From Deltaproteobacteria bacterium (GTDB lineage: Bacteria > Desulfobacterota > Syntrophobacteria > BM002), in NCBI GenBank assembly GCA_022340905.1, contig JAJDNB010000014.1:1227-65226 (forward strand): a stretch of 64,000 nucleotides of DNA. Direction: 5' to 3'. The position numbers were made by a program, and so were the translations under genes. The stretch's first letter is position 1; every line of letters begins with the position of its first letter. This document shows positions 7,679 to 45,250 of the stretch, piece after piece. The notes beneath the pieces are model-generated. The model saw nothing but the letters and a program-made list of their open reading frames with translations. It was not told the DNA's origin and made no database searches.

Positions 7679-7679
7679 G

Positions 7680-21789: not shown

Positions 21790-22130
21790 ACACAGATTTA
21801 CACAGATATTTATCTAAACAACAAGCCACAATCTCAGGTCGATTCGTCGATTGGTCAAATCACGCAAGCATAGAGCATAGGGTCAGACGACTGAGGACAG
21901 CAGGGTTACGCGGCGAAAAAGGCGGAGATCGGAGGTCAGAGGTCGGAGGTCAGAGGGCAGAAGACAGAGGACAGACGACAGAAGGTCAAATCGTCAATAT
22001 GTCAAATAGTCAAATGGTTATGAATGACCACGATGACTAATTAACTATTTGCCTAATTTCCCAATTGACCAATCGACCATTTGACTAATTCTCTCATTCC
22101 CTAATTCCCTACCTGCTTGTCGCTTACTGT
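21790..22130. repeat. Mosaic intergenic repeat block including an inverted copy of the roughly 100-bp conserved element
   Basis: Contains catagagcatagggtcagacgac, ggtcagaggtcggaggtcagagggcagaagacagaggacagacgacagaaggtcaaatcgtcaatatgtcaaatagtcaaatggtta-tgaatgaccacgatgac-aatt...gcctaatttcccaattgaccaatcgacc. That last run is the reverse complement of 39471..39570 and 57137..57240. Confidence 0.65.
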
Positions 22131-27629: not shown

Positions 27630-29522
27630 CTACTTTTTTTCTATCTCTCGCATTTTCAAGCGCAAATAGCTATCCTGAGCTTCGGGGTTTTCAGGATCTA
27701 CTTCGAGCACTCTATTATAGGTAGATAATGCCTTTTCGGTCTTGCCGATCTGCTCATAAAGCCCGGCCAGGTGCATTAAATAGCTGGTATTTTTTGGCGC
27801 CAGTTTTACCAGAGCCTCAAATTGGTGAATCGCCTCCACCAGAAGATTCCGTTTTTCGTAGGAAACGGCGAGAAAATATCGAAGTTCGGGTTGCTCAGGC
27901 AGCTTGCCCACGGCGCTAGCAAGGGTCTTGGTCATCTCCTCGTAGGCCTCCAGTTGATCGTAAAGCTCAAATGCCTTCACATAGTAATGCCAATAGTTGG
28001 GGCGTAGTTTCATAAGCTCTTCTAGAACCGCCAGTGCTTTGCGGGGTTTTTTCTCCTGACGATAAATCTCCACCAAATATTCTCTGGCGTCAATGTCCTT
28101 TTTGTCCAGTTTCAATACCGCTGCGAATGCTTTAGCAGCCTGGTCGTATTGCTTCATTTCATAGTAGAGGACTCCTTTGTTGTAGTGCACTACCTTGTTG
28201 TCGGGTGCCAGTGCAGCTATGGCCTCGTAGGTAGCCGCGGCCTCCTTGTCCATTTTTAATTTCTCATAGATGTCAACCAGCGCCAGATGTGCCTTGAGCG
28301 ATTGGGGATTGTCCTTGATAATCTCCTTGAGGGTTTTTATTGCCTGTTGATCCTTTTTCCTTTTTTGGTACACCGCTGCCAGACGCATTCTCGCATCTAC
28401 ATCCTTAGGTTTTTCTTTGAGGTAGGTGAGTATGCTCTTTTCTGCCTGGCGATAATTTCCAACCCTGCTATAGGCCTCACCTAAATTCAGCTGGATGAGA
28501 GGGTTATCAACTCCACCGGCCAAGGCTCTTTTGTAAAATTCTATGGCCTTTCGCCACTCTCCCTGCTGACCATACAGCGTACCAAGGTAAGCGTAGACCT
28601 CCGGCTGGTAGGGTTTTGGAAAATCATTCAAGTTGGTGGCGAGGAAAGAGGCCGCTTGCTCTGGATTTCTTTTCGCGTTCAGATATGAAATAAATCCGTA
28701 AAATGGTACTTTGTCGTTACCGCTTGCTTCGATGAGTCTGATATAGGAAGTAAGGACTTGCTCGGTCTTGCCCGCCTTCTGGTAAGCTTCAACCAGTTTT
28801 TGCAGGATGGATGCGGTCTTGCTGGTGGCCGCAACCTTTTCATAAGTAGAAGCCGCCTTTGCCCATTCGTCCTGTTCAGCGTAAAGCTGGGCGAGATTTG
28901 TCAAAATCAAGGCATTGTGCGAGGCCAAGCGAGCGGCTCGTTCATAGTAGCGCAGCTTCTCTTGAGGACTTGTTGCCTGTTGCGCTTTGAATACCCAGTC
29001 TTTCGCTAGAAGTCGTACGACCATGTTGAAGTGACCAATGGGCTGAGATCCCGATATTACCTCCACCACAGCTTTCAAGGGTTTTTCTTGATCGAAATCG
29101 GGCCAGAATTTCCTAATCTCCCGACGGCCCTCCAGCAGTTCATTAGCCGGAAACTCGCTGGAGCTCAGTCTCAAGCCCCAGTTAAATCTGCCATCAGTGT
29201 GGATGTCATCGACTTCGACCACATCTGCCGGGTTTACCACCAGGGTGCCTTCAGCTGGCACGGTGTGTGAGACCCCGTTTACAATTAAATCAACTGAAAT
29301 GAGCTTGCCGGGCACGGGGAACATGTCTCGGAGGGCGGTGTAGGGCGCAAAGACAACAACATAAATAACCCCGGCAATAACGCCCGCGAGCATCAAGAGC
29401 ACAATGGACCATTTAACTTTGCGAGAAATTGTCCGACGCCTCTCTCTCGCCTGCAAGGCCGCGAGCCGTTCCTGCTCCAACCGTCTGATAGGAATCCTCT
29501 TTCGCGTTGTTTTATTCTGCAT
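27630..29522 (-). CDS. Membrane-anchored tetratricopeptide (TPR) repeat protein
   Basis: Has an N-terminal TM segment (WSIVLLMLAGVIAGVIYVVVF) followed by more than 10 TPR units (AxxxYxxA... patterns). Length is 630 aa. Confidence 0.8.
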   Translation of the reverse strand: MQNKTTRKRIPIRRLEQERLAALQARERRRTISRKVKWSIVLLMLAGVIAGVIYVVVFAPYTALRDMFPVPGKLISVDLIVNGVSHTVPAEGTLVVNPADVVEVDDIHTDGRFNWGLRLSSSEFPANELLEGRREIRKFWPDFDQEKPLKAVVEVISGSQPIGHFNMVVRLLAKDWVFKAQQATSPQEKLRYYERAARLASHNALILTNLAQLYAEQDEWAKAASTYEKVAATSKTASILQKLVEAYQKAGKTEQVLTSYIRLIEASGNDKVPFYGFISYLNAKRNPEQAASFLATNLNDFPKPYQPEVYAYLGTLYGQQGEWRKAIEFYKRALAGGVDNPLIQLNLGEAYSRVGNYRQAEKSILTYLKEKPKDVDARMRLAAVYQKRKKDQQAIKTLKEIIKDNPQSLKAHLALVDIYEKLKMDKEAAATYEAIAALAPDNKVVHYNKGVLYYEMKQYDQAAKAFAAVLKLDKKDIDAREYLVEIYRQEKKPRKALAVLEELMKLRPNYWHYYVKAFELYDQLEAYEEMTKTLASAVGKLPEQPELRYFLAVSYEKRNLLVEAIHQFEALVKLAPKNTSYLMHLAGLYEQIGKTEKALSTYNRVLEVDPENPEAQDSYLRLKMREIEKK

Positions 29523-29541
29523 TCGTAGATCTATTCCTCTC

Positions 29542-30279
29542 TCACATCAGCCCCACAGCCTGCCTCAGAGCTCGCACTTCGCTGGCTTTAAGTCTTCGAC
29601 TTTTGCCTGATTGCAGGTTGCCCAGGTCTATTGGGCCTATCTGAGTCCTGCGCAATTTCAGCACCGGACATCCAACAGCTGCACACATTCGTTTCACTTG
29701 ATGATTGCGCCCCTCCCTCAAGGTTAAGGTGAGCCAGGTTGCCTTGTTGTCATGTTCTAGAACACGCAACTCTGCAGGCGCGGTCACGCCGTCTTCCAGC
29801 CTAATTCCTTGCTGTAACCGGGTCAAACCGTCTTCACCTGGATGACCGCGCACCTTTACCATGTAGGTCTTGGGGACCTTATATCTTGGGTGCTGTAGCC
29901 GGTGAGCCAACTCGCCATCATTTGTCATCAACAGCAATCCTTCTACATCATAGTCCAGTCGCCCCACTGGATACACCCTCAGTGAGATACTTTTAACCAA
30001 ATCCGCCACCGTGGGTCTGCCCTGGGGATCCTGAAGGGTGGTTACATAATTTTTAGGCTTGAAAAGCGCCACAACCAACTTCTCAGTTGCGGGCTTGACT
30101 GCCTTGCCGTCCAGACAAATATCATCCTTACCCAAGACAGCTTTCGCCCCCAGTTCACTTACGACTCTCCCGTTGACAGACACCCGGCCCTGAAGTATTA
30201 GCTCCTCCGCCTTACGGCGAGAAGTAATCCCGGCTTTAGAAAGGATTTTTTGCAATCTCTCAGCCTGCATCTGACTCAT
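29542..30279 (-). CDS. rluB: RluB/RsuA-family rRNA pseudouridine synthase
   Basis: Has an N-terminal S4 RNA-binding domain (GITSRRKAEELILQGRVSVNG) and an RsuA catalytic core (VGRLDYDVEGLLLMTNDGELAHRL). It overlaps scpB by 20 nt. Confidence 0.85.
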   Translation of the reverse strand: MSQMQAERLQKILSKAGITSRRKAEELILQGRVSVNGRVVSELGAKAVLGKDDICLDGKAVKPATEKLVVALFKPKNYVTTLQDPQGRPTVADLVKSISLRVYPVGRLDYDVEGLLLMTNDGELAHRLQHPRYKVPKTYMVKVRGHPGEDGLTRLQQGIRLEDGVTAPAELRVLEHDNKATWLTLTLREGRNHQVKRMCAAVGCPVLKLRRTQIGPIDLGNLQSGKSRRLKASEVRALRQAVGLM

Positions 30280-30832
30280 GCGGTTTCCGTTGTTTTTCTC
30301 CTGGGCTTGCTTGTTCTATCAGCTCTTCCATTTCTTCCAGGGTAGGCAGTGAAGCGATGTCTTTAAGATTGAAAAACTCCAAAAACTTATGGGTAGTACC
30401 GTATATAATGGGGCGGCCTGGGACATTCTTGCGGCCTAAGATTTTGATGAGATTTTTCTCCAGAAGCAACCGCAGTATGCCACCAACATCCACTCCTCTA
30501 ATGCTTTCGATCTCCGATCTGAGAATGGGCTGCCTATAGGCAACGATAGCAAGAGTTTCCAAAGACGCCTGGCTCAACCTGGTTGGAATAATTTTCTTCA
30601 GTTTGCGAATCCAATCTCCATATTCCGGCTTAGTGCGAAACTGATATCCCTGCGCCACCTCGGCCAGGAAAAAACCGTGCCCGTGGTCAGCATACTCCTG
30701 GCGCAATTCCTCCAGTGCCTGGATTATTTCCCCGTGAGTGTGCATGGAGAGGATGGCCTTGATTTTTACCAGGCTCAGCGGAACCTCAGAGACGAAAAGA
30801 AGGCTTTCAATGATGGCACGCAGTTCTGCCAT
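30260..30832 (-). CDS. scpB: Segregation and condensation protein B
   Basis: ScpB signature: N-terminal AIIESLLFVSEVPLS, a tandem winged helix, and GRPIIYGTT. Confidence 0.9.
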   Translation of the reverse strand: MAELRAIIESLLFVSEVPLSLVKIKAILSMHTHGEIIQALEELRQEYADHGHGFFLAEVAQGYQFRTKPEYGDWIRKLKKIIPTRLSQASLETLAIVAYRQPILRSEIESIRGVDVGGILRLLLEKNLIKILGRKNVPGRPIIYGTTHKFLEFFNLKDIASLPTLEEMEELIEQASPGEKQRKPHESDAG

Positions 30833-30894
30833 ACAGCAATTCTCCTGACTTGTCTCAGAGCGGGATGTCTTTATAGCTCACAACAGCTTTGATG

Positions 30895-30990
30895 TGACCT
30901 GTGGGATTTAGCATGGGGCATAGAGCATAGGGCATAGAGTAAAAAACCTATTTCGCAATTTTAAATCTCGCATCTCAGATCTCACATCTC
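30895..30990. repeat. Left arm of an inverted repeat flanking scpA
   Basis: The sequence gcatggggcatagagcatagggcatagagtaaaaaacctatttcgcaattttaaatctcgcatctcagatctcacatctcg has its reverse complement at 31815..31900, near-perfect over about 70 bp. A third related copy lies at 44870..44975. Confidence 0.7.
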
Positions 30991-31024
30991 GTTTACCATA
31001 TCCCACATCAGATAGAAACTAGAC

Positions 31025-31771
31025 CTAGTGCGGGCCTGTCGCTATGTCACCATCAGCAGCAAGATAGAGCCGGATGATACCACTGGGTTGATGCTGAAAA
31101 GCCCGGACCATCCGCAAGCGCACCAGTTCAAGGATTGACAGAAAAGTAAGGATTATGTCCATCTTCCTAACTTTTCCCTGAAAAAGTTCGTGGAAGGTTA
31201 TACTGCTCACTCCCGACAAAACCTCCATAACTTGGGCTATTCTGTCCCTGAGCCGCATACCCTCTACATTCACTTCCATGAAATCTCCCGGTTCCGCCCT
31301 TTTTAAGACTTCTTGGAGGGCATTGACCAGGGCAAACAGGCCCACCTCCGCAATTTCCTCGCTTCCTTCCGTGCCCCACAACTCTTCGGTGGGGATGTTT
31401 CGCACATAGACATCCCGATCCAACTGCAGACTGTTTGCAAGAATTTGAGCGGCCTCTTTTATCTTGGCGTACTCCAGCAAGGGCCTCACCAATTCCATGC
31501 GCGGATCTTCCTCCAGGTCCTCTTCCTCAGAGCCAACCCGCGGCACCAGCATGCGTGATTTGATATAAGCCAAAGTGGCCGCCATTTCCAAAAACTCTCC
31601 AGCAACATCTATGTTGAGGCTTCTCATCATGTCCAGGTACTTCAGGTATTGGCCCATAATGAGTGCTATAGGGATGTCGTAGATGTCCACTTTGTTCTTT
31701 CTGATCAAATGGAGTAGCAGATCCATGGGACCTTCAAAAATTTCCAGTTTTATCTCATAATCTTGCAGCAT
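31025..31771 (-). CDS. scpA: Segregation and condensation protein A (kleisin)
   Basis: ScpA family: N-terminal FEGPMDLLLHLI and a winged-helix C-terminus. Length is 248 aa. Confidence 0.85.
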   Translation of the reverse strand: MLQDYEIKLEIFEGPMDLLLHLIRKNKVDIYDIPIALIMGQYLKYLDMMRSLNIDVAGEFLEMAATLAYIKSRMLVPRVGSEEEDLEEDPRMELVRPLLEYAKIKEAAQILANSLQLDRDVYVRNIPTEELWGTEGSEEIAEVGLFALVNALQEVLKRAEPGDFMEVNVEGMRLRDRIAQVMEVLSGVSSITFHELFQGKVRKMDIILTFLSILELVRLRMVRAFQHQPSGIIRLYLAADGDIATGPH

Positions 31772-31799
31772 GGCTCTCCGGCTTTATCTCCCTCGGGAT

Positions 31800-31915
31800 C
31801 TAAACTTATGTGTGATCTGAGATCTGAGATTTAAAATTGCGAAATAGGTTTTTTACTCTATGCCCTATGCTCTATGCCCCATGCTAAATCTCACATCTCA
31901 GATCACAGATCGGTT
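31800..31915. repeat. Right arm of the inverted repeat flanking scpA
   Basis: The sequence tgtgatctgagatctgagatttaaaattgcgaaataggttttttactctatgccctatgctctatgccccatgctaaatctcacatctcagatcacagatcg is the reverse complement of 30901..30985. Confidence 0.7.
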
Positions 31916-31957
31916 AATTCAAAATACTCAGCGCACGGGATTTTCACTTTCTCGCCT

Positions 31958-34597
31958 TCAGCTCTGACCTGCCTGCAAAAAATGCTGCTGAACAAACTCC
32001 ACCTCCTCTTCTCTGCTCGACAGCTCCCCATTCAGTCGGCCGTCCAGAAGTTGATTGAGGATCCGGCGGTAGACAGGTCCAGGTGTAATGCCCATATCCT
32101 TCAAGTCTTTACCGCGCAGTTTTGGCCGCACTTCTTTCAGATCGCGGAAATAGTGACTTATAGCACGTCGGGTTTCTTCCTGCTGGGATTTCGCCATTAT
32201 GAACAGTAACCACTCCGTACTGACGCTTTCCAATAGGTGGTAAATGTCGCTGGCTTTGAGGTCAGGTTTTCGGTAGAACACTTTGCCGACAGAAATAGCA
32301 TTTTCCCTCCCCTCTCCCAGCAAGCTTGCGAGGCGGGGCGGAAACTCCATCCTAACAATGAAATTTTCAAGCTCTGGGGGGGCCAAAGGATCAAGGAGAG
32401 CCAAAAGGTAAACCAGCCACCTGTCACAACCGTTTTTGATAAAGCTGAGATCGTACCAGGCAAGCACTGAGCCGATCTCTCTCAAAAGCCGCTCGACGGG
32501 AGGCCCGTAATGGATGTCAGGATGGAGAAAAGGCAACAGGTTATATTCATTCATTCTCTTGATCGCAGGAATGGGATCCTCCTCGCTGAGTATATACTTG
32601 AGCTCGTTTGTGAGTCGCCTGCCGCTCAACTCCACAAGCAGTTTCATCTTCACGGCGTTCTCAATCAAATTGGAGGTATGTTTCATAATGCGAAAACCCA
32701 AGCGTTGCTCATAACGGATCGCCCGGAGAACCCGCGTGGGATCCTCCACAAAGCTGTAATTGTGAAGAACCCTGATGGCCTTATCCTTGAAATCCCTCTG
32801 CGCTCCAAAATAATCTATCAGCTGACCGAACCTATCTGGATTCAACTCCACCGCCAGGGTGTTTATAGTGAAATCCCGTCGGTAAAGATCCAGTTTTAGA
32901 GAGCTCAGTTCAACTGTGGGCAAAGCCGCAGGGTATTCGTAATACTCCAGCCGGGCTGTGGCCACATCAATTTTGAAGCCGTCCGGAAAGATCACTACCG
33001 CCGTGCCGAACTTCTTATACGATCTCACCCGGGCATCATAGCTTTGAGCAAAATCCTTGGCAAAGACAATTCCGTCGCCTTCCACCACAATATCAATGTC
33101 CAGGTTGGGACGTCGCAACATGAGGTCGCGGATGAAACCTCCCACTGCGTAAGCTCTGTAATCATGCTTTGCGGCAACCCTTCCAGCTTCCTGCAATATT
33201 TCGTTTATCTGGCGGGGCAACTGTTCTCTCATTACATTAGAGACATTTTTGCGCCGTTTTTTCTCTGTCTGCTGGACCGGTTCGTAGACGTAGGTGGGAA
33301 TACGACTCGGATCGTGTAAAAGCGTGTTGAGCAGATCCTTGCGGGTAATAACTCCAACCACCTTACGATCCTCCACCACGGGAAGCAATCGCTGCTGCAG
33401 ATCCACCAAGTGCTCCTGAATTTCAATCAAAGAAGCATTAGGGGATACGCTAGTGAATTCTGTCCCCATGAACTCACTTACAGCCACGTTCTTGAAACCG
33501 TGATATATGCCTTTGTCTATCATTTGACGGGATAGTATGCCCACCAAGCGTTCCCCGTCCAGCACCGGAGCAGCGTTGATGTTGTAACGCGTTAGCAGGT
33601 CAGCGGCCTCTTGCAAGCTAAGGCTGGGTGATACGGAGATGACCGGGGACGACATCAGGTTTTTCGCCCTTTGCTTAGGATTAATCCAGCTCTGGAGAAT
33701 TCGAAAAAGTTCTTCCTCAACCTGGATCAGGGTGAGGTCTTTTATGGTTGCCGAGGCAGCACTGGAGTGGCCACCTCCGCCAAAGACCGCAGCGATCTCT
33801 CCCACGTTAACTTCAGGCAACCGGCTACGCGCCACCATGTATATACGATCTTCCATTCGGGCAAGGGCAAAGAGAACATTGAGGTTTTCCATGTCCATAA
33901 GCTTATGAACCAGTAGGGCAAAATCGCCGATGTACTTATCCACGGAAGCCCGGGCCATGCAAACGGGGATGGTGTTGATAGTGTGCGATGTGGCCGAGTG
34001 GATCAGATCATTTAGAAGCGAAATTTGCTCTGCTGTCAACTCACGAGTGAGCATATCAGATACCAAATTAAGATTTGCTCCCTGGGTGAGAAGAAAGCGG
34101 GCGGCTTCGTAGTCCTCTGGAGTAGTGGATGAAAAGGTAAATGAACCGGTATCTTCGTAAATACCCAAGGTGAGGATGGTGGCCTCATCGGGGGTGAGCT
34201 GAATGCCACGCTCCCTGATGAGTTCGGTGAGGATGGTAACCGTAGCCCCGACCGGCTTTACCACCTCAATGGATCCAGAGACATCATCTTCAGAATCGGG
34301 GTGATGATCATATATGTGGATGTCGACTTTTTTCTCTTTTACCGCCTTTTCGAATTTACCGATACGTCCCGCCTGTCTGGTATCGACCAGAATGAGACGG
34401 CTAATTTTAGTGAATTCCACATCTCTTATTTTGGCAAAATCAAAAAAGTAGAAAGTGGATTCCACCAAAAACTCTCGGAGGTTGTGTTCCTGCGAGCCTG
34501 GAAACACCATGACTGCCTCTGGATACAGTTTTTTTGCGGCAATCATGGACGCCATGGCGTCGAAGTCGGCATTTATGTGAGTGGTTATGATTTCCAC
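31958..34597 (-). CDS. Multidomain DHH/DHHA1 phosphoesterase - CBS pair - polyA-polymerase/CCA-adding tRNA nucleotidyltransferase fusion
   Basis: The N-terminus has DHH (THINADFDAMASMIAA) and DHHA1 (GGGGHSSAASAT) domains. A central CBS pair follows, then a nucleotidyltransferase head (AYAVGGFIRDLMLRRPNLDIDIVVEGDG) and a C-terminal HD-like region. Length is 879 aa. Confidence 0.8.
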   Translation of the reverse strand: MEIITTHINADFDAMASMIAAKKLYPEAVMVFPGSQEHNLREFLVESTFYFFDFAKIRDVEFTKISRLILVDTRQAGRIGKFEKAVKEKKVDIHIYDHHPDSEDDVSGSIEVVKPVGATVTILTELIRERGIQLTPDEATILTLGIYEDTGSFTFSSTTPEDYEAARFLLTQGANLNLVSDMLTRELTAEQISLLNDLIHSATSHTINTIPVCMARASVDKYIGDFALLVHKLMDMENLNVLFALARMEDRIYMVARSRLPEVNVGEIAAVFGGGGHSSAASATIKDLTLIQVEEELFRILQSWINPKQRAKNLMSSPVISVSPSLSLQEAADLLTRYNINAAPVLDGERLVGILSRQMIDKGIYHGFKNVAVSEFMGTEFTSVSPNASLIEIQEHLVDLQQRLLPVVEDRKVVGVITRKDLLNTLLHDPSRIPTYVYEPVQQTEKKRRKNVSNVMREQLPRQINEILQEAGRVAAKHDYRAYAVGGFIRDLMLRRPNLDIDIVVEGDGIVFAKDFAQSYDARVRSYKKFGTAVVIFPDGFKIDVATARLEYYEYPAALPTVELSSLKLDLYRRDFTINTLAVELNPDRFGQLIDYFGAQRDFKDKAIRVLHNYSFVEDPTRVLRAIRYEQRLGFRIMKHTSNLIENAVKMKLLVELSGRRLTNELKYILSEEDPIPAIKRMNEYNLLPFLHPDIHYGPPVERLLREIGSVLAWYDLSFIKNGCDRWLVYLLALLDPLAPPELENFIVRMEFPPRLASLLGEGRENAISVGKVFYRKPDLKASDIYHLLESVSTEWLLFIMAKSQQEETRRAISHYFRDLKEVRPKLRGKDLKDMGITPGPVYRRILNQLLDGRLNGELSSREEEVEFVQQHFLQAGQS

Positions 34598-34604
34598 CAG
34601 TTCA

Positions 34605-34800
34605 GCTCTTATTGTTTAACTAAGCATAGGGCATAGCGATAAAATTTCGAAATTCGAATTTCGAAATTCGAAATTAAAAATCCCCAATCCTCAATCCCAA
34701 ATCCCATCTTCTCCCTATTACAACAAATGGCAGCGAAGCGTAATGACCTAATGACGCCGAAGGCAAGTGACCTGCAGCGCTAGCTGCTCTACGCCCGCGG
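34605..34800. repeat. Mosaic intergenic repeat block including an inverted copy of the gcgtcatttgccttcggcgtcatta element
   Basis: Contains catagggcatagcg, aaatttcgaaattcgaatttcgaaattcgaaattaaaaatccccaatcctcaatcccaaatccc, then gcagcgaagcgtaatgacctaatgacgccgaaggcaagtgacctgcagcgc. That last run is the reverse complement of 4545..4612 and 47371..47430, and it overlaps the xerD stop. Confidence 0.6.
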
Positions 34801-35703
34801 GTGGTACTTCCTGTGCACCTCTCTCAGTCTCTCCCTGGCCACATGAGTGTAGATCTGCGTGGTGCTGATGTCGGCGTGTCCGAGCATCATTTGCACTGAA
34901 CGCAAATCGGCCCCACGCTCGAGGAGATGGGTGGCAAAAGAGTGCCTCAAGCTATGGGGGGTCAGATCTTTATTGAGACCAGCTTCACGTCCATATTTTT
35001 TGATTAACTTCCAAAACCCCTGCCTGGTCATTGACGTTCCTCGATTGGTCACAAAAAGGATCTCAGTCATCCTTCCTTTTAATAAGCGAGGGCGGGACTC
35101 CAACACATAGCGCCGCACGGCCTCCGTAGCGGCCTCACCCGCTGGAACGATGCGTTCTTTGGATCCTTTTCCCAGCACAACCAGAAAACCGACCTCGAGG
35201 TTGACCCTCCCCAACGTGAGGCTGACCAACTCTGAAACTCGCAGTCCGGTTCCGTAGAGAAGCTCGAGCATGGCAGCGTCTCTCTGACCCAACGGCAATC
35301 TGGTGTCGGGGCGAACCAGAAGTCGTTCTACTTCAGCAACACTCAACACAGACGGAAGCTGGCGCCGGAGTCGGGGAGAGGTTAAGTTTGCCACCGGACT
35401 CTCTTTCAGGTGGCTGTCCCGTACCATAAATTTAAAAAAGCCACGGAGGGCCGAAAGTAGTCTCGCCCTGCTTCTAGGGGCCAAACCCTCTTTCTGGGCG
35501 TGGGAAAGGAAACCCATGATCTCGGAGTAACCAACCTGACTCCAACTACTCATCCCCTGCTCTCTGAGGTAATTCATAAATTTTAGCAAATCAGCACTGT
35601 AGGAGGCTCGGGTATTAGAGGCAAGACCTTTTTCTACGGTGAGGTAGTCCAAGTAAAGATCAAGCTGGGTATCCATGGTCATTGGTTGTTCCGCAGTCAA
35701 CAT
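34789..35703 (-). CDS. xerD: Tyrosine recombinase XerD/XerC (chromosome dimer resolution)
   Basis: Phage-integrase fold with the catalytic block HSLRHSFATHLLERGADLRSVQMMLGHADISTTQIYTHV. Co-located with scpAB. Confidence 0.88.
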   Translation of the reverse strand: MLTAEQPMTMDTQLDLYLDYLTVEKGLASNTRASYSADLLKFMNYLREQGMSSWSQVGYSEIMGFLSHAQKEGLAPRSRARLLSALRGFFKFMVRDSHLKESPVANLTSPRLRRQLPSVLSVAEVERLLVRPDTRLPLGQRDAAMLELLYGTGLRVSELVSLTLGRVNLEVGFLVVLGKGSKERIVPAGEAATEAVRRYVLESRPRLLKGRMTEILFVTNRGTSMTRQGFWKLIKKYGREAGLNKDLTPHSLRHSFATHLLERGADLRSVQMMLGHADISTTQIYTHVARERLREVHRKYHPRA

Positions 35704-35819
35704 ATTTTGTGAAGGGGAAGTTTCTGTTTACCCTCACATAATTCTATTTTTCCTAAAATCGTCGAGAACATAGCAAATGGACCTTGCAGAGTCAACTGCT
35801 AACGGGTCTCGCAACAAGC

Positions 35820-36000
35820 GGTTCGAGGGAGAGAAGGCTCTGGTCAATTGGTCGATCTGTCAAATGGTCAAAAGGTTAAATGGTTAATTCGTAGAAATCG
35901 TAGAAATCGTTAAAACCGTTGAAATCGTTCAAGTCGTGAATGGTAGATAATAAACGGTCAATTACTTGCCTATTTGACCAATTCCCTATTTGACTACTTG
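35820..36000. repeat. Mosaic intergenic repeat block
   Basis: Contains ggtcaattggtcgatctgtcaaatggtcaaaaggttaaatggttaattcgtagaaatcgtagaaatcgttaaaaccgttgaaatcgttcaagtcgtgaatgg...cggtcaattacttgcctatttgaccaattccctatttgactacttgacgacttgac. Confidence 0.6.
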
Positions 36001-36014
36001 ACGACTTGACTTGC

Positions 36015-36183
36015 TGTCCTCTGTCCTCTGTCATCTGTCGTCTGTCATCTGTCATCTGTCATCTGTCGTCTGCCATCTGTCGTCTGTCATCTGTCATCTG
36101 TCATCTGTCATCTGTCATCTGTCGTCTGTCATCTGTCGTCTGTCATCTGTCGTCTGTCATCTGTCCTCTGTCATCTGACCTCT
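36015..36183. repeat. Microsatellite: about 21 tandem copies of the 8-mer gtc(a/g/c)tctg
   Basis: gtcctctgtcctctgtcatctgtcgtctgtcatctgtcatctgtcatctgtcgtctgccatctgtcg... located in the divergent xerD/nrnA intergenic region. Track ORF 36006..36209 (SSVICRLSSVICHL...) is its translation. Confidence 0.85.
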
Positions 36184-36312
36184 GGCCTCCATGCCCCATG
36201 CTAACATAGGAAAAATGCGCTTGACCTGGGCCCTCGCTTATGGCACTGTTGAGTAGTTGTCGACACAATCTTCAACTTGCTGATATATTTAGAAAAATAG
36301 AGAGACTACGAC

Positions 36313-37335
36313 ATGGCCGTCAACAATCCGCGACTCCGCTCCGCAAAACCTCGATCTATCAGCGAAAACCTCAACAAGCTCTTGAAACTCTTTGATTCCA
36401 AAGACCGTGTTCTCATTACTATTGATGCCGACCCTGACTCTTTGGCATCCGCCATGGCCCTAAAACGGCTCCTGTGGCGCAAAGCTCAATCAGTCACCAT
36501 TGCTCACTTCAATGAAATTGTTCGGTTCGACAACGCCACTATGGTTCGGCTTTTAAAGATCCCTTTGGTCAAGCTTCAACAGGTTGATCCCAAAGATTTC
36601 TCCAAAGTCCTTCTTGTCGATAGCCAACCCCACCATCATGAGGCCTTCGGTGATTTTACTTACGACGGCGTCATAGATCACCATCCCGTAACCATGCCTG
36701 TGGAAGCTGAATTTGTGGACATCCGGCCCAACTACGGCGCGACCGCCAGCATAATGACCGAATATTTGCGTTCTGCCAAAATTCGCCCATCCAAGAGTCT
36801 TGCCACCGCCCTTCTTTATGCCATCCGGGTGGACACTCACAATTTTGAGTTACAGGCATTGGAAGAGGACGTGAAGGCCTTTCGCTATATTTTCCCCTTG
36901 GCCAACATGAACTTGCTGCGGAAAATAGAGATGTCCGATATGGGGATCAAAGATCTTAGATATTTCCAGCAGGCTTTGGATAACAAGCGGATTACAAAAG
37001 GCAAGATCTTCTCCCATCTCGACACTGTTCACTCAACAGATATCCTCGTATTGGTTGCGGATTTTTTTATGAGATGTCACGAGGTGGCCTGGACAATAGT
37101 TTCAGGAGTTTGCAACAAAAACCTGGTGGTGGTGATACGCAACGATGGGTTTAGAAAAAACGCCGGAAACTGGGCGATTAAGGCCTTCGGCAAGCTGGGA
37201 AGTGCCGGTGGTCATCGGGCCATGGCTCGCGCTGAAATCCCTATGGCCAATCTCGATTCCCACCTCACTAAAGCCGAGGTTTCTAATCTCGGCCGCTTTG
37301 TAATCCGCCAGTTTAAGAAGAGCGTTGAGAGCTAG
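36313..37335 (+). CDS. nrnA: DHH-family phosphoesterase NrnA (bifunctional oligoribonuclease / pAp phosphatase)
   Basis: Has DHH motifs (ITIDADPDSLASAMAL; DHHP) and a DHHA1 C-terminus (GSAGGHRAMA). Length is 340 aa. Confidence 0.8.
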   Translation: MAVNNPRLRSAKPRSISENLNKLLKLFDSKDRVLITIDADPDSLASAMALKRLLWRKAQSVTIAHFNEIVRFDNATMVRLLKIPLVKLQQVDPKDFSKVLLVDSQPHHHEAFGDFTYDGVIDHHPVTMPVEAEFVDIRPNYGATASIMTEYLRSAKIRPSKSLATALLYAIRVDTHNFELQALEEDVKAFRYIFPLANMNLLRKIEMSDMGIKDLRYFQQALDNKRITKGKIFSHLDTVHSTDILVLVADFFMRCHEVAWTIVSGVCNKNLVVVIRNDGFRKNAGNWAIKAFGKLGSAGGHRAMARAEIPMANLDSHLTKAEVSNLGRFVIRQFKKSVES

Positions 37336-37396
37336 CCTGGATATTTCATGAATCAATTCAACAAATATCCAGGCCAGGAGAGGAGGAAAAAGGGGT

Positions 37397-37645
37397 TTAG
37401 TTTTTTTCCCTGTTTGCTTGGTTGGTCAAACCCGCAGCTATTTTTTCGGTGTGATACATCATCTCTTGAATATGCTTGTCCTTTTTCTCTAGCCGCTGCT
37501 TGAGAGTTCGATTTTCTTGCCGTAATTTAGTGGCTTCCGACCTGGCAAAGAAGCCGCGAATCTTTCCATAGATCAGTGTTCCAACCACCCCGACAACGGC
37601 TCCCAGAGCAGTACCTATCCAAAAATAGAAGCTGGGATTTTCCAC
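37397..37645 (-). CDS. Small membrane-anchored coiled-coil protein (hypothetical)
   Basis: A single N-terminal TM (FYFWIGTALGAVVGVVGTLIYG) precedes a charged coiled-coil tail. Length is 82 aa. Confidence 0.45.
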   Translation of the reverse strand: MENPSFYFWIGTALGAVVGVVGTLIYGKIRGFFARSEATKLRQENRTLKQRLEKKDKHIQEMMYHTEKIAAGLTNQANREKN

Positions 37646-37800
37646 CAGATATGACCCTCATTCCATATAGTTAAAGTTCAAACTGCAAGCATCAATTCCC
37701 AAGGTTTCAGCTATTCGCAGAGCGCTAAGCGCGTAGCGTTGTGTCAACTAGTCGATTCGTCGAATGGTAAAATCGTTAAAACCGTAACCGGTGATAGGAG

Positions 37801-38550
37801 TTAACCCTTTTTAGAATTACCGGCAACCATGGGCAAACGTTTGCGCAAAAGCACATACATAGCCCCGGCGCCGCCGTCACAGGGTTGCGCCGTAGCAAAT
37901 GCGAGAACCAAACGCTTTAGTTGACCACGTTTGAGCCAACTTGACATACGTTCTTTGAGAACCGGCATTTGATCCCGTGAATTGAGTCCCCGGCCGTGGA
38001 TGATGAGAACACATCGGAGCCCTTTGATCACACTGGAGAGGACAAATCGTTCCACAGCCTTCCTGGCCTCGGCTGTCGTCATACCGTGGAGATCAAAATG
38101 TGCCTGAATGGAAAAATCACCCCGCCGCAACTTCGGTAACAGCTCAGGATCAGTTCCTGCGACCGCGCCCTCGATATACTCGTCCGTATATTGAATATCA
38201 AAACTTCCATCCCCGCTAACCAGATCAACCAGCTGAGCATAGGCCTCCAGTTCTTCCTCCAGCATCGGTCGCCGACTGGGCTTGGCCAGCGGGCCAGGCT
38301 TTCTCGGTTCCACTGTGTTGCAGGTGAGAGTCTCCACACCAGTCATTGCTTCTCGGAACAAATGATCTTCTTCTTGAAGGCCGACTTTCTCTGTTTCAAC
38401 TTCATCGCTTGATGATGACGGTTGGATTTCTCCCTGTTTCAGCATTTCATCTAACCCGGCGAAAGGGGTATTGAAGTTCTCGTCGGATACCGGGTTAGAG
38501 GTAGCAGAGTTCTTCTGTTTGCGTCTCTTTTTCATCGCGAACTCGCACAA
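37801..38550 (-). CDS. Smr (MutS2 C-terminal-like) domain protein
   Basis: The C-terminal Smr domain reads LHGMTTAEARKAVERFV...LIIHGRG, as in small MutS-related nicking endonuclease domains. Confidence 0.75.
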   Translation of the reverse strand: MCEFAMKKRRKQKNSATSNPVSDENFNTPFAGLDEMLKQGEIQPSSSSDEVETEKVGLQEEDHLFREAMTGVETLTCNTVEPRKPGPLAKPSRRPMLEEELEAYAQLVDLVSGDGSFDIQYTDEYIEGAVAGTDPELLPKLRRGDFSIQAHFDLHGMTTAEARKAVERFVLSSVIKGLRCVLIIHGRGLNSRDQMPVLKERMSSWLKRGQLKRLVLAFATAQPCDGGAGAMYVLLRKRLPMVAGNSKKG

Positions 38551-38576
38551 ATATTATTCTTTTATAGCATAGGAGA

Positions 38577-39464
38577 TTGTGTTATGAAAGGCCCATGAAT
38601 TCTCCCAAACTCATTGCAGCGCAGCGTGAATTTGACAGGTTTATCGAACAGATTAGCAGGGTAAAGTATTTGGCTGTGGACTCGGAGTCAAATAGCTATT
38701 TTGCCTACAGACCGCGCATCTGCCTCATCCAAATTTCCGCAAACAACACAGACTTTATCCTCGATCCCCTGACCCTGAAAGACTTCACTGGCCTGGGTCG
38801 CATTCTCTCAGACCCTTCTGTGGAGAAAATAATTCACGCTGCTGAAAACGACATTATTGGCTTCAAAAGGGACTATCGTTTCCAGGTAATTAACATCTTC
38901 GACACCTCGGTAGCTGGTCGCCTGCTGGGTCGCAAAAGATTGGGGCTTGCCACCATTCTCTCCGAGGAATTCGGCATTACCGTGGACAAAAAATATCAGC
39001 GCTGCAATTGGGAAAAGCGTCCTCTTAACCCAGAGCAACTCTGTTACGCCCAGCAGGACACACATTTTCTCAAAAAATTGCGGGACCTACTCCACAACCA
39101 GCTCGTAGAACGCAATCTTTGGCACCAGGCAAAGCGGGATTTTGCTCGATTGGAAAAAGTTCGGGTCAGACCTCCGAGAGAGTGGGATCCAGATGGTCAC
39201 CTCCGTCTAAGGGGTGCAGAGCAATTGTCCCAAACCTCTTTGGGAGTTCTCAAAGAGCTGTTTGCCCACCGGGAGCATTTAGCCCGAAAAACCAACAAGG
39301 CTCCCTTTCGGATAATGAACAACGAATTTATGGTGAGGTTGGCTAGGGAGATGCCGGAGAGGAAAAGCGACCTGCTGAGGATTAGAGGACTGCCTGCCCC
39401 CTTCAAGGGAAAAAAGTCAGCTCAACTCCTTCGAGTCATCAAGAAGGGAAAATCGGTTAATTAG
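38577..39464 (+). CDS. rnd: Ribonuclease D (3'-5' exoribonuclease with HRDC domain)
   Basis: DEDDy exonuclease motifs (LAVDSESNSYFAYRPRICLIQIS; YAQQDTHFL) and a C-terminal HRDC domain. The start may instead be the internal ATG at 38595 (MNSPKL). Confidence 0.85.
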   Translation: MCYERPMNSPKLIAAQREFDRFIEQISRVKYLAVDSESNSYFAYRPRICLIQISANNTDFILDPLTLKDFTGLGRILSDPSVEKIIHAAENDIIGFKRDYRFQVINIFDTSVAGRLLGRKRLGLATILSEEFGITVDKKYQRCNWEKRPLNPEQLCYAQQDTHFLKKLRDLLHNQLVERNLWHQAKRDFARLEKVRVRPPREWDPDGHLRLRGAEQLSQTSLGVLKELFAHREHLARKTNKAPFRIMNNEFMVRLAREMPERKSDLLRIRGLPAPFKGKKSAQLLRVIKKGKSVN

Positions 39465-39467
39465 GAA

Positions 39468-39700
39468 ATTGGTCGATTGGTCAATTGGGAAATTAGGCAA
39501 ATCGTTATTTCGTCATCGTGGCATTCATAACCATTTGACTATTTGACATATTGACGATTTGACTTGCTGTTGTCTGACGTCTGACCTCTGACCTTTGGGC
39601 TGGACGACTTCTACGATTTCTACGACCTGCTGAATTCTCTAATTCCCTAATTCTCATTTGTCCTCCGGACTCGGGTCCGGAAGGTGGGGTCGCTTGACAT
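39468..39700. repeat. Conserved roughly 100-bp intergenic element (plus-orientation copy) with flanking mosaic
   Basis: ggtcgattggtcaattgggaaattaggcaaatcgttatttcgtcatcgtggcattcataaccatttgactatttgacatattgacgatttgacttgctgt, followed by tgtctgacgtctgacctctgacc and cgacttctacgatttctacgac. Near-identical copies are at 57137..57240 and 47584..47645. A reverse-complement copy is at 21984..22080. Confidence 0.7.
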
Positions 39701-39754
39701 CATGCCTCCCTTGGCTTATAAGCGATAATCCTACACCGCCACTAGGAAAGGAAA

Positions 39755-41482
39755 TTGATGGGTGACTGTTCTTACCTGAAAGATGCGCTCAAATCATACA
39801 CTTACGATCAGGACAAGGTGCGAACCCCGGAGGAAACGGTGGCTCATGTACGACAGAGGTTCGCCAGCGTGGACATGGACATTTTGCAACAGACAATGCG
39901 CATCGACACAGGACGCCTGGACATACCCGTATACATAAGCCTCTGCGGCTCAGATGCTGTGGTTCTCACAGGAACCAAGAAACAGATGGGCAAAGGAGGT
40001 ACGCCAATCCAAGCGGAGGCCAGCGCTTTGATGGAGCTCGCTGAACGTTTCAGCTTCTTTTCCTTTATCAAGAACACGCTCTTCCCCTTGGCCACTTACT
40101 CAGAGTTGGACGGCAACAGCCTGCCAGTAGAAATGCTCTGGCAGTCTCTCCACGACACTGTAACCGATCCGAATTTGGGCGCCGCCGTTATCAGAGGAAT
40201 GCCTTTTCGCTGGACCCGAGCCTGCAACCTAACGCGCAATGAAGAGTTATTGATTCCTATCGATTGGTTTTACACTATCAACGAGTACAACGGACCTGCA
40301 GCAGGCAATGTGCGGGAGGAGGCCATCCTCCAGAGCATCTGCGAGGTAGTCGAGCGGCACGTCTCCTCGGTGATCAGCAACGAACGCATGGTTACTCCCA
40401 GTATCGATCCAGCCAGCGTTCAAGATCCGGCAGCAAGGGAACTCCTCGACAAGTTTGCTGCACAGTCGATTCGCCTTTTCATAAAAGACTTCTCTTTGGA
40501 AACCGGCATTCCCACAGTAGGAACTCTGGCCTGGGACCCCAGAACCTTTCCCGAAAAAAGCGAGATCGTCTTCACAGCTGGCACCACACCCAATGCAGAC
40601 AAATCTCTCGTCCGAGCCCTCACCGAGATAGCTCAGTTGGCAGGAGATTTCGAACTTCGTACCAGTTATCGGCCGACTTTGCCCAAGTACAAGAGTCTCG
40701 AGGAAGCAGAGTACATTACGACCGAGGCTCCCGTAGTGTCCATAAAAAGTCTGCCCGATCTCAGCGACAACAACTTCAAGACCGAAATTGAACGATGTGT
40801 ATCCACCCTTTCTCATTTAGGCATGGAGGTCTTGGTCGTTGACGTGACCCACCCGCAGCTGGGTATCCCGGCCGTCTACACCATTATACCGGGAGCTCAT
40901 TTTAGAGATCGCACCAGGGACAGCAACGTAATCTTCCATGCGGCCAAGATTATCAGTCAGTCTGTGGAAGGGGGTCGCGCTGTTGGCGCGATCCAAAGGT
41001 TGATTGATGGTTTTCCCGGACGTTACGATCTCCATTTTTTTCTGGGCTTGGTTTTGGAATACCAAGGCGAAGCGGGTGAAGCTCTGGGGGAGTTTCAAAG
41101 GGCTCTGGACTTAAATCCCGGTCCCCTCGATATTGCCAGCGTCCACACGCACATAGGGGTCTGTCTGAAGGATCTAGAGGACTACAAGGGAGCCATCGGA
41201 GCTCTCGAACAAGCGAGGGAGTTTGATCCTAATCTCAAGGAAATCTACAATGTTCTGGGCTTTTGCTATTTCAAGCTCAAGGAGCATGAGCAATCTATCC
41301 AGCAGTTCGAAAAAGCCATAGAGATTGATCCCGGCTCTGCCATTGACTACGCCAACATCGGTTCGAATCTGAGGGAGATGGGTCACAAAAAAGAAGCAAT
41401 CCGCCTTTATCGGATAGCCCTCGAGATTGATCCCACCATTGATTTTGCCAGGGAAAGTTTGGCCAAGTTGGAGGGGAAGTGA
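39755..41482 (+). CDS. ycaO: YcaO-domain protein with C-terminal TPR repeats (E. coli YcaO-type, non-TOMM)
   Basis: YcaO ATP-binding signature (TGTKKQMGKGGTPIQAEASALMELAERFS) and a roughly 170-aa C-terminal TPR region. The 575-aa length and architecture match E. coli YcaO, which is linked to RimO-dependent S12 methylthiolation. Confidence 0.8.
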   Translation: MMGDCSYLKDALKSYTYDQDKVRTPEETVAHVRQRFASVDMDILQQTMRIDTGRLDIPVYISLCGSDAVVLTGTKKQMGKGGTPIQAEASALMELAERFSFFSFIKNTLFPLATYSELDGNSLPVEMLWQSLHDTVTDPNLGAAVIRGMPFRWTRACNLTRNEELLIPIDWFYTINEYNGPAAGNVREEAILQSICEVVERHVSSVISNERMVTPSIDPASVQDPAARELLDKFAAQSIRLFIKDFSLETGIPTVGTLAWDPRTFPEKSEIVFTAGTTPNADKSLVRALTEIAQLAGDFELRTSYRPTLPKYKSLEEAEYITTEAPVVSIKSLPDLSDNNFKTEIERCVSTLSHLGMEVLVVDVTHPQLGIPAVYTIIPGAHFRDRTRDSNVIFHAAKIISQSVEGGRAVGAIQRLIDGFPGRYDLHFFLGLVLEYQGEAGEALGEFQRALDLNPGPLDIASVHTHIGVCLKDLEDYKGAIGALEQAREFDPNLKEIYNVLGFCYFKLKEHEQSIQQFEKAIEIDPGSAIDYANIGSNLREMGHKKEAIRLYRIALEIDPTIDFARESLAKLEGK

Positions 41483-41650
41483 GAGGTCAGCAGTAAGCGG
41501 TAAACGGTACAAGATGTTATTCGTTATTTGTCATACGTTATCCCTTATACGTTACTCGGAAAACATCAGCCTATAACTCGCTGTCGTCTGTCATCTGGTC
41601 CGACGATTCCTACGAACTAACCTTTTGACCATTTGACCAATCGACTAATT
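41480..41650. repeat. Mosaic intergenic repeat block
   Basis: Contains ggtcagcagtaagcggtaaacgg, ttattcgttatttgtcatacgttatcccttatacgttac, ctgtcgtctgtcatctggtccgacgattcctacgaactaaccttttgaccatttgaccaatcgactaattgac. Confidence 0.55.
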
Positions 41651-41721
41651 GACTTGAGCCTTACGTCTTGCACCTTTCTGCCAATCCGCGATTGCCTTTC
41701 CAGCCTTTCTCGCTTCGAACA

Positions 41722-44025: not shown

Positions 44026-44034
44026 CCTATACTC

Positions 44035-44859: not shown

Positions 44860-45250
44860 CAAAGGGCTAATCTGAGATATGAGATACGAGATGCGAGATT
44901 TAGCATTGCGAAATAGGTTTTTACTCTATGCCCCATGCTCCATGCTAAATCTCACATCTCTGATCACACGTCAGTCGCCAAGGAGTTCGATGCTACTTGT
45001 GCCTGGACTATGCCCCAATTGTTGTGGGCAAGTCAAGAGAAGGACTGGATGCTGGATGCTGGATGCTTGATGCCGGCAAAGCTCTGGCAGACAGAGACAT
45101 CTACCCTGCTGGATGCCGGGGCAGACAAGAAGTGTATCATGCGAGAAAGGATACTCGCCCGAGATGCTTAATTCCCTTTCTCGCATTTCTCGCCCTTAAC
45201 GCTATGCGCCATGGGCTATGCTCAATGCGCAGGAGGCCATACTTCTGCGT
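44860..45250. repeat. Mosaic intergenic repeat block
   Basis: Carries a third copy of the scpA-flanking element (gagatgcgagatttagcattgcgaaataggtttttactctatgccccatgctccatgctaaatctcacatctc). It also contains ggatgctggatgctggatgcttgatgccgg and a partial gcgagaaagg element (ccctttctcgcatttctcgccc...gctatgcgccatgggctatgc). Confidence 0.6.

What the first reader, a model, noticed from the sequence alone, without database searches (positions are those of the whole stretch)
30895..31915. scpA is bracketed by a near-perfect inverted repeat of about 70-80 bp
The sequence gcatggggcatagagcatagggcatagagtaaaaaacctatttcgcaattttaaatctcgcatctcagatctc at 30901.. reappears as its exact reverse complement at 31815..31890. 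The two copies enclose only the scpA CDS (31025..31771). A third copy sits at 44870..44975.

A single kleisin gene framed by long inverted repeats could be an invertible or excisable segment. It could form a stem that insulates scpA from scpB/rluB transcription. It could equally be coincidental insertion of two elements.
Basis: seen in the sequence. Interest (0 to 1): 0.6.

Follow-up and report, generated by a model that had tools for sequence, protein, structure and literature searches.

The report
Hairpin repeat copies flanking scpA
The inverted repeat around scpA is real, but its arms are two copies of a small hairpin-forming intergenic repeat that comes, goes and flips among closely related strains while scpA keeps its orientation, so it looks like repeat-element turnover and not a gene switch.

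Summary
The inverted repeat is confirmed. The arms are 30887-30987 and 31808-31908: 101 nt, 93/101 complementary, with a 65-nt exact run. Only scpA lies between them. A diverged third copy (about 81%) sits at 44868-44978.

Each arm is a roughly 105-nt polar hairpin element. Its stems are made of GAGATNT heptamers and its core is an asymmetric 56 nt. The window is full of such short-tandem-repeat palindromes: they cover 17% of intergenic bases and 0.56% of coding bases.

In 30 contigs from related genomes and strains, the order xerD, A-adding tRNA nucleotidyltransferase, scpA, scpB, rluB is constant and scpA is never inverted. The two spacers vary freely. They are empty, deleted, filled with unrelated palindromes, or hold the same element in the opposite orientation. 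The bracket is one haplotype among at least seven.

The neighbouring tyrosine recombinase is the housekeeping XerD.

Best reading: ancestral hairpin elements occupied both spacers, and their cores were homogenised in inverted orientation. By-products are a predicted 100-bp RNA duplex around scpA and a substrate for rare homologous recombination.

One 930-bp closed-loop metagenomic contig (scpA, hybrid element, scpA) hints at repeat-mediated excision or duplication in a sister haplotype. It may be an assembly chimera. Interest is low to moderate.

The parts
30887..30987 (+). Arm L: hairpin repeat element in the scpA-scpB spacer. Element polarity (GAGATGTGAGATTTA-GCATGGGG...CGCAAT-TAAATCTCGCATCTC) reads on the + strand.
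   Evidence: Its outer stems are orthologous to the elements at the same site in L003, L014 and L027. It forms a weak local hairpin on the mRNA strand (-18.1 kcal/mol, z +1.3).
30905..30969 (.). 65-nt segment of L that is the exact reverse complement of 31826-31890 (inner stems plus the 56-nt core).
   Evidence: The probability of so long an exact run, given 8 mismatches in 101 positions, is 0.0014.
31808..31908 (-). Arm R: hairpin repeat element in the spacer between the A-adding tRNA nucleotidyltransferase gene and scpA. Element polarity reads on the - strand.
   Evidence: Strong local hairpin: -41.1 kcal/mol, z -5.9. Its right stem and flank are orthologous to L002, L003 and L004.
44868..44978 (-). 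Third, diverged family copy (T): an intact hairpin lying about 60 nt upstream of the start codon of ORF 44035-44811 (-).
   Evidence: about 81-82% identity to L and R. -50.3 kcal/mol, z -5.6. GAGATNT stems occur only at L, R and T in the window.
31025..31771 (-). scpA (kleisin subunit of SMC-ScpAB), the only gene between the arms.
   Evidence: Pfam SMC_ScpA, E = 6e-27. Identical to NCBI MCG6979966.1.
30260..30832 (-). scpB, downstream of arm L.
   Evidence: Pfam SMC_ScpB, E = 5e-56.
29542..30279 (-). rluB-type pseudouridine synthase, overlapping the end of scpB.
   Evidence: Pfam S4 plus PseudoU_synth_2.
31958..34597 (-). DHH-CBS-PolyA_pol fusion protein (A-adding tRNA nucleotidyltransferase type), upstream of arm R.
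   Evidence: Pfam. NCBIfam NF041569 scores 1077 bits, below its cut-off of 1440.
34789..35703 (-). XerD tyrosine recombinase, first gene of the conserved string. Housekeeping, not a dedicated invertase.
   Evidence: TIGR02225 scores 373.5 bits, above its cut-off of 329.6. Found at the same position in L001-L003, L005 and L007-L012.

Best explanation
The two arms are copies of one polar, non-coding, roughly 105-nt hairpin repeat. Its stems are built from GAGATNT heptamers and its core is an asymmetric 56 nt: four GCATRGR heptamers followed by TAAAAAACCTATTTCGCAATTT. The copies sit in the two spacers on either side of scpA, inside the conserved gene string xerD, A-adding tRNA nucleotidyltransferase, scpA, scpB, rluB.

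Shown:
- Hairpin elements with the same type of stem occupy the orthologous sites on both sides of scpA in several related genomes.
- The outer stems are site-specific. The inner stems and core are identical between the two arms of this genome.
- The spacers are hypervariable among strains, and the element occurs in either orientation at the same site.
- scpA orientation is constant.

Inferred:
- The core of the upstream element was copied onto the downstream one in antiparallel register. The palindromic stems allow pairing in either orientation, so gene conversion or template switching could do this. The result is the 101-bp inverted repeat.
- The bracket is therefore a by-product of repeat-element turnover in a genome whose intergenic DNA is saturated with short-tandem-repeat palindromes. 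It is not a programmed device.
- Likely side effects: local hairpins, or at equilibrium a roughly 100-bp duplex, in any transcript that spans both arms. That would be a plausible RNase III or stability determinant, as described for Correia and REP elements. At the DNA level the repeat is a substrate for rare RecA-type recombination.
For: - The repeat is real and each arm is itself a hairpin.
- There are three family copies in the window, and GAGATNT stems occur only at those three sites.
- Tandem arrays of 7-9-nt units (TRF periods 7, 8, 9 and their doubles or triple) cover 17% of intergenic bases against 0.56% of coding bases, and are present in 21 of 39 spacers of at least 80 nt.
- Flanks and outer stems at both sites align with L002, L003, L004, L014 and L027, whose cores differ (X-type). 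In L003 and L027 the X-type elements sit on both sides of scpA in direct orientation.
- All orthologous elements fold as strong hairpins, z -2.8 to -13.
- The 65-nt exact centre within diverged outer stems has P = 0.0014 under uniform divergence.
- Strain-level alleles: the DOWN site is empty in L025, an unrelated GTCATT-type palindrome in L026, L031, L033 and L036-L041, and a truncated core of opposite orientation in L028, L029 and L035. The UP site holds an element inverted relative to the window in L028, L029, L031, L033 and L034, an X-type element in L035, and a deleted hairpin in L036-L043.
- scpA is collinear with its neighbours in 30 of 30 contigs.
- XerD is an equivalog and positionally conserved.
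- No other recombinase or transposase was found among the scanned window proteins.
- There is no Rfam hit, and no promoter or terminator signal above the shuffle expectation.
Against: - The direction and mechanism of core copying are inferred, not observed.
- Both haplotypes that carry this core on both sides (window +/-; L028 -/+) keep the two cores mutually inverted. That could hint at selection for pairing, but it rests on two cases and the L028 downstream core is truncated.
- Only three copies are visible, and one scan of metagenome contigs found the core only at this locus. A dispersed family is therefore poorly sampled.
- Contig L030 closes on itself through a hybrid element. This could mean real excision or duplication, which would make the elements more than passive.
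- No expression data exist.
Confidence: 0.7

Rival explanations
1. RNA-level device. The two arms pair in the polycistronic transcript into a roughly 100-bp duplex that loops out the scpA coding region. This creates an RNase III processing site or an insulating stem that uncouples scpA expression from the genes on either side, much as the stems flanking 16S and 23S rRNA do.
For: The full 1081-nt fold closes scpA in the long stem. The R:L duplex is -157.8 kcal/mol against -59.2 for the two local hairpins combined. Arm L is a poor local hairpin on the mRNA strand (z +1.3), so it is free to pair at long range. Both double-core haplotypes keep the cores mutually inverted. Correia elements are known RNase III targets (PMC2649163).
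Against: The bracket is absent from most close strains. L025 has an empty DOWN site and no element UP; L031, L033 and L036-L043 have unrelated DOWN elements; L028 has a truncated DOWN core. L003 and L027 carry direct, not inverted, cores. Co-transcriptional folding favours the local R hairpin. Co-transcription of the genes has not been shown.
Confidence: 0.12
2. Two independent transposition events of a mobile MITE-like element landed, in opposite orientations, in adjacent spacers. This could reflect local hopping or a preference for GAGAT-repeat targets. No gene conversion between the resident elements is needed.
For: The element has terminal inverted repeats, a defined polarity, occurs in both orientations, and shows presence/absence polymorphism within about 95-98% identical strains. 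MITEs commonly insert in either orientation (PMC10969869).
Against: No target-site duplication is seen: compare the filled site in L027 with the empty site in L004, TTCTG|TTTGGAC. No transposase was found in the window. The outer stems are orthologous to elements with a different core in other species, so the sites were already occupied. Stem length varies by whole heptamers, which suggests slippage and not cut-and-paste transposition.
Confidence: 0.13
3. Programmed DNA inversion or excision switch for scpA, catalysed by the neighbouring tyrosine recombinase acting on the arms.
For: A tyrosine recombinase gene lies 3 kb upstream. The arms are long inverted repeats. The L030 loop and the L026 and L032 palindromic contigs show that unusual junctions exist around scpA.
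Against: The recombinase is a XerD equivalog, conserved at this position in relatives without the repeat. None of 30 contigs has scpA inverted. The unusual junctions are not those expected from L x R inversion: they join scpA to scpA and combine different strain haplotypes, and all three are 1.0-1.4-kb MEGAHIT contigs with consecutive ENA accession numbers, apparently one study.
Confidence: 0.03
4. Assembly artefact: the inverted repeat was created by misassembly of a repeat-rich MAG contig.
For: The locus does tangle metagenome assemblies, giving palindromic and circular short contigs.
Against: L024, an independent JGI contig at 97.5% identity, reproduces scpB-L-scpA with the same element and orientation. 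L026 carries an R-type element with the same core upstream of scpA. The flanks of both arms are orthologous to many genomes.
Confidence: 0.02

Closest known systems
Correia repeat-enclosed elements (CREE) of Neisseria
   Same: Both are intergenic non-coding elements of about 100-150 bp, with terminal inverted repeats around an asymmetric core. Both are transcribed within operons as hairpins and occur in either orientation, with strain-level presence or absence. Correia elements are documented RNase III targets and promoter donors (PMC2649163, PMC2229807).
   Different: Correia inverted repeats are a fixed 26-bp sequence with a TA target duplication and hundreds of copies. Here the stems are variable-length arrays of degenerate heptamers, no target duplication is seen, and only three copies are visible in 64 kb. 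RNase III cleavage and promoter activity were not tested.
REP / BIME / REPIN elements (RAYT-mobilised palindromes)
   Same: Both are extragenic palindromes that populate spacers inside operons, form mRNA hairpins, evolve in concert within a genome, and differ between related genomes at the same sites (PMC3733652, PMC3184786).
   Different: REPs are 20-40 bp with GTAG or CGTC tags and an associated RAYT transposase. No such tag and no RAYT gene were found here, and these elements are longer and built from tandem heptamers.
Intergenic heptanucleotide repeats of cyanobacteria (STRR) and marine Beggiatoaceae (TAACTGA repeats)
   Same: Short tandem 7-mers are strongly enriched in intergenic DNA, often just upstream of start codons, in a subset of bacterial lineages (PMC4679880). 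That STRR elements are of this kind is from my own knowledge.
   Different: Those are mostly simple direct arrays. Here, arrays of different 7-9-mers are arranged as nested palindromes around unique cores. The host is an uncultured Desulfobacterota (Syntrophobacterales-like) lineage.
Inverted-repeat-flanked invertible segments (Hin, Gin, Fim, shufflons)
   Same: A DNA segment lies between inverted repeats, with a recombinase gene nearby.
   Different: No dedicated invertase is present. The arms are about 100 bp where the recombination sites of those systems are short (my own knowledge). The enclosed gene is a housekeeping kleisin without an outward promoter logic, and no inverted form was seen in 30 contigs.

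Membership tests
MITE (miniature inverted-repeat transposable element) | Terminal inverted repeats enclosing a short non-coding core | tested here: met
   Stems of 25-45 bp flank a 56-nt core. Hairpin z-scores are -5.6 to -13 for R, T and L026.
MITE (miniature inverted-repeat transposable element) | Target-site duplication flanking each copy | tested here: not met
   Empty site in L004 (TTCTG|TTTGGAC) against the filled site in L027 shows no duplication. The ATCTG and CTG repeats next to L003 and the window copy pre-exist in the empty sequence.
MITE (miniature inverted-repeat transposable element) | Related autonomous insertion sequence or transposase sharing the terminal repeats | tested here: inconclusive
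   No transposase was found among 46 window proteins, but only 64 kb of the genome is available.
MITE (miniature inverted-repeat transposable element) | Many dispersed copies in the genome | tested here: inconclusive
   Three copies in 64 kb. The metagenome scan for the core found only this locus.
Site-specific invertible DNA segment | Dedicated invertase (serine or tyrosine recombinase) linked to the segment | tested here: not met
   The only recombinase is a XerD equivalog (373.5 bits, cut-off 329.6), conserved in relatives without the repeat.
Site-specific invertible DNA segment | Both orientations of the enclosed segment occur in populations or relatives | tested here: not met
   None of 30 contigs has scpA inverted relative to polyA or scpB.
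Correia-like RNase III-targeted repeat | The transcribed hairpin is cleaved or protected by RNase III and alters the stability of neighbouring mRNA | not testable with these tools
   Only predicted structures are available.
REP/REPIN | Conserved GTAG or CGTC tetranucleotide tag and an associated RAYT transposase | tested here: not met
   No tag at the element ends. No Y1-transposase domain in the scanned proteins.
Rfam RNA families | Match to a curated covariance model | tested here: not met
   No hits at E <= 1 over 29000-46000.

The most novel reading that the evidence does not exclude
The hairpin elements on either side of scpA form a recombination-active cassette system in natural populations. 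They flip, swap cores between the two sites and, in haplotypes where the two copies are direct, loop out or tandemly duplicate the 930-bp scpA unit. Contig L030 would be that junction: scpA 3' end, hybrid element, scpA 5' end, closed at k = 119. This would give repeat-mediated copy-number or on/off variation of a chromosome-condensation gene. The mutually inverted configuration seen in the window (+/-) and in L028 (-/+) would be the stable, non-excising state.
Probability: 0.1. Interest if true: 0.6.

Novelty: new member of a known kind. Interest (0 to 1): 0.3.

Why it matters
As found, this is mainly a caution. In this lineage, long inverted repeats around a gene arise as a by-product of abundant hairpin repeats, and they tangle metagenome assemblies into palindromic and circular short contigs.

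It also documents an uncharacterised repeat class in uncultured Desulfobacterota: nested palindromes built from tandem heptamers, with within-species polymorphism in orientation and presence.

If the long-range RNA duplex or the loop-out junction proved real, it would be a natural example of repeat elements modulating expression or copy number of the SMC kleisin.

Tried and rejected
- Exact look-up of the window ScpA in the gene-position index returned nothing, although the protein equals NCBI MCG6979966.1.
- The metagenome scan for the core pattern returned only the same locus, L024, so dispersal across the family could not be measured.
- Rfam in E-value mode over 17 kb gave no hits.
- The promoter and terminator scan gave nothing above the shuffle expectation. 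The elements lack a T-run, so they are not intrinsic terminators.
- I considered XerD as an invertase and rejected it on equivalog status and positional conservation.
- I considered L026 and L032 as L x R inversion products and rejected this. The expected junctions (arm, rc scpA 3' end; rc scpA 5' end, arm, scpB) are not what they contain. They join opposite-orientation haplotypes through the shared core. L032 has an extra fold-back at a 3-nt microhomology.
- I did not attempt covariation analysis of the stems, because the heptamer register makes alignments ambiguous. Individual folds were used instead.
- The target-site-duplication candidates ATCTG and CTG were rejected after comparison with empty sites.

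Full report
**Observation**

The inverted repeat exists. Its arms are 30887-30987 and 31808-31908, 101 nt, 92% complementary and 820 nt apart. An ungapped comparison gives 93/101 matches and a 65-nt exact run, 30905-30969 against 31826-31890. Core probes never matched in 100 shuffles.

Only its first 59 nt are exactly mirrored.

All genes here are on the minus strand. In order they are:
- XerD (34789-35703);
- a DHH-CBS-PolyA_pol protein of the A-adding tRNA nucleotidyltransferase type (31958-34597);
- arm R;
- scpA (31025-31771);
- arm L;
- scpB (30260-30832);
- an rluB-type pseudouridine synthase (29542-30279).

The third copy, T (44868-44978), is real but only 81-82% identical to the arms.

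**Anatomy of an arm**

Each arm is itself a hairpin element (pairs I2 and I5). The stems are arrays of degenerate GAGATNT heptamers ending in ATTTA/TAAAT. They enclose an asymmetric 56-nt core: four GCATRGR heptamers followed by TAAAAAACCTATTTCGCAATTT.

The element has polarity. The GCATGGGG end abuts GAGATGTGAGATTTA, and the CGCAAT end abuts TAAATCTCGCATCTC. This holds in L, T and the related strain copies. R has TAAATCTCAGATCTC at the CGCAAT end instead.

On the mRNA strand:
- R folds at -41.1 kcal/mol (z -5.9);
- T folds at -50.3 (z -5.6);
- L folds at only -18.1 (z +1.3).

GAGATNT stems occur in the window only at L, R and T. There is no Rfam match. No terminator-like or promoter-like signal exceeds the shuffle expectation.

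**Genomic background**

The window is saturated with short tandem arrays of 7-, 8- and 9-mers arranged as palindromic mosaics. Against a crude ORF map, such arrays (TRF periods 7, 8, 9 and their doubles or triple) cover 17% of intergenic bases and 0.56% of coding bases. They are present in 21 of 39 spacers of at least 80 nt. The two scpA spacers are therefore typical of this genome.

Enrichment of intergenic heptamer repeats in some bacterial lineages is known (PMC4679880).

**Related genomes**

Twelve related Desulfobacterota (Syntrophobacterales-like) MAGs, with 76-90% ScpA identity, keep the order and orientation nucleotidyltransferase, scpA, scpB, rluB. XerD lies upstream in the ten of their loci that reach that far. 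Spacer lengths vary from 46 to 481 nt.

Alignments show that the flanks and outer stems of both arms are orthologous to hairpin elements at the same sites in L002, L003, L004, L014 and L027. Those elements carry a different core, called X-type here: GAGATGAGACRGG...CAATTTGT...CATCCCACATC. L003 and L027 have X-type elements on both sides of scpA in direct orientation. L004 has an empty downstream site. All these elements fold as strong hairpins.

Hairpin elements of this stem type therefore occupy both sites in several related genomes, which points to ancestral occupancy. The window's core is lineage-specific.

Within the window, the centre of the arms is identical and the outer stems are diverged. 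This pattern has P = 0.0014 under uniform divergence. It points to recent copying of the core and inner stems between the two resident elements. Because the stems are palindromic, antiparallel pairing is as easy as parallel pairing, which explains the inverted outcome. That last step is inferred.

**Strain-level variation**

A protein search, cluster listing and contig look-ups gave 19 contigs at roughly 83-99% nucleotide identity to this locus.

Upstream (UP) alleles:
- the window type (core '+');
- the same element inverted (core '-') in L028 (13.4 kb), L029 (from a sample set with differently named accessions and scaffolds), L031, L033 and L034;
- an X-type element in L035;
- a hairpin deleted down to a right-stem remnant in L036-L043;
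- a different leader without an element in L025.

Downstream (DOWN) alleles:
- the window type in L024;
- a left stem plus a truncated core of the opposite orientation in L028, L029 and L035;
- an unrelated GTCATT-type palindrome in L026, L031, L033 and L036-L041;
- an empty 68-nt site in L025.

At least seven UP/DOWN combinations exist. The full inverted bracket is seen only in the window; L024 shows the window-type DOWN element but does not reach UP.

In every contig that links scpA to a neighbour (13 loci, 17), scpA is collinear: 0 of 30 are inverted.

**The recombinase**

The tyrosine recombinase 3 kb upstream passes the XerD equivalog cut-off (373.5 against 329.6 bits). It occupies the same position in relatives that lack the repeat. 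No other recombinase or transposase was found among the 46 window proteins scanned. A dedicated inversion system is therefore not supported.

**RNA consequences (predicted only)**

A transcript spanning both arms folds, at equilibrium, into a roughly 100-bp duplex that loops out scpA. The duplex is -157.8 kcal/mol against -59.2 for the two local hairpins.

Such a duplex would be a plausible RNase III substrate, by analogy with Correia elements (PMC2649163). However, the bracket is missing from most close strains, so it cannot be a conserved requirement.

**Unresolved**

Three short MEGAHIT contigs with consecutive ENA accession numbers, apparently from one study, contain scpA-scpA junctions.

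- L030 (1049 nt) has identical first and last 119 nt. That makes it a closed 930-bp loop: scpA, window-type left stem, hybrid core, L028-type right stem, leader, scpA. This is the junction expected for a circle or tandem duplication formed between direct copies. It could equally be a chimera of two co-occurring haplotypes.
- L026 and L032 are palindromic about the element. They join opposite-orientation haplotypes through the shared core. L032 also folds back at a 3-nt microhomology near the scpA stop codon.

None of these is the junction expected from L x R inversion.

**Verdict**

The headline interpretation, an invertible or excisable scpA, is not supported for this arrangement. The 'two family members' reading is closest, refined to ancestral occupancy of both sites plus homogenisation of the cores.

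The elements resemble MITE, Correia and REP-type repeats functionally. They fail the target-duplication and transposase criteria and are built from tandem heptamers, so I file them as a new member of the known kind 'small palindromic intergenic repeats'. Interest is low to moderate. The population-level flipping and the L030 loop are the parts worth a read-level follow-up.

Noticed in passing
window, whole; e.g. 4496-5015, 7678-7994, 21830-22115, 35840-36210, 47318-47660, 57030-57290, 62330-62590: Intergenic DNA is saturated with mosaics of tandem 7-, 8- and 9-mers (GAGGTCA, TGGTCAAA, CGTAGAAGG, GCATAGG and others), arranged as nested palindromes. They cover 17% of intergenic bases against 0.56% of coding bases. 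The modules recur at different sites in related genomes.
   Followed up: partly
window 36014-36177: A long, pure heptamer array, (CTGTCAT) x 23.4, lies in the 609-nt spacer upstream of xerD.
   Followed up: no
window 21929-22111 and 57107-57289; also 39451-39555, 47555-47659, 57120-57224; and 4496-4611 with 47318-47433: Larger composite repeat families are present. One is an inverted pair of 183 nt at 86%, 35 kb apart. There are also direct families of 105-116 nt. They belong to a different family from the scpA arms.
   Followed up: no
L028:2854-2990, L029, L031, L033, L034 against window 31808-31908: At the same upstream site, close strains carry the whole hairpin element, inner stems included, in the opposite orientation to the window. 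The flanking genes are unchanged.
   Followed up: yes
L030 (ERZ27284373 k119_2308741), whole contig: The first 119 nt equal the last 119 nt, so this is a closed 930-bp loop holding one scpA and one hybrid element. It is a circle, a tandem duplication, or an assembly chimera.
   Followed up: partly
L026:1-340 and L032:1-300, 1000-1189: These are palindromic contigs: the reverse complement of the scpA 5' end and leader, then the element, then the leader and scpA. The two arms come from different haplotypes. L032 also folds back at GGTGAC|CTAGTG near the scpA stop codon, which produces the 279-aa 'protein' P0132.
   Followed up: partly
ScpA proteins P0001, P0121-P0137; L025:283-310: ScpA has two N-terminal alleles (MLQDYEIK and MTQEYQVH) and two C-terminal alleles (...DGDIATGPH and ...DGDIMPS/DIMAS). 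In the contigs examined these track the type of flanking spacer. Recombination breakpoints therefore seem to lie just inside the gene ends.
   Followed up: no
window 34789-35703 to 29542: The conserved string xerD, DHH-CBS-fused A-adding-type tRNA nucleotidyltransferase, scpA, scpB, rluB is present across the clade. The nucleotidyltransferase scores below the NCBIfam equivalog cut-off (1077 against 1440 bits).
   Followed up: partly
window 31874-32209 (+): A 111-aa ORF starts inside arm R and runs antisense into the nucleotidyltransferase gene. It has no Pfam hit and is probably spurious.
   Followed up: partly
window 12970-13082: A 42-nt tandem repeat (2.7 copies, 84% matches) lies inside the coding region of the DUF2914 protein at 12632-13165.
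   Followed up: no
window 39755-41482 (+): A YcaO domain is fused to C-terminal TPR repeats in a 575-aa protein.
   Followed up: no
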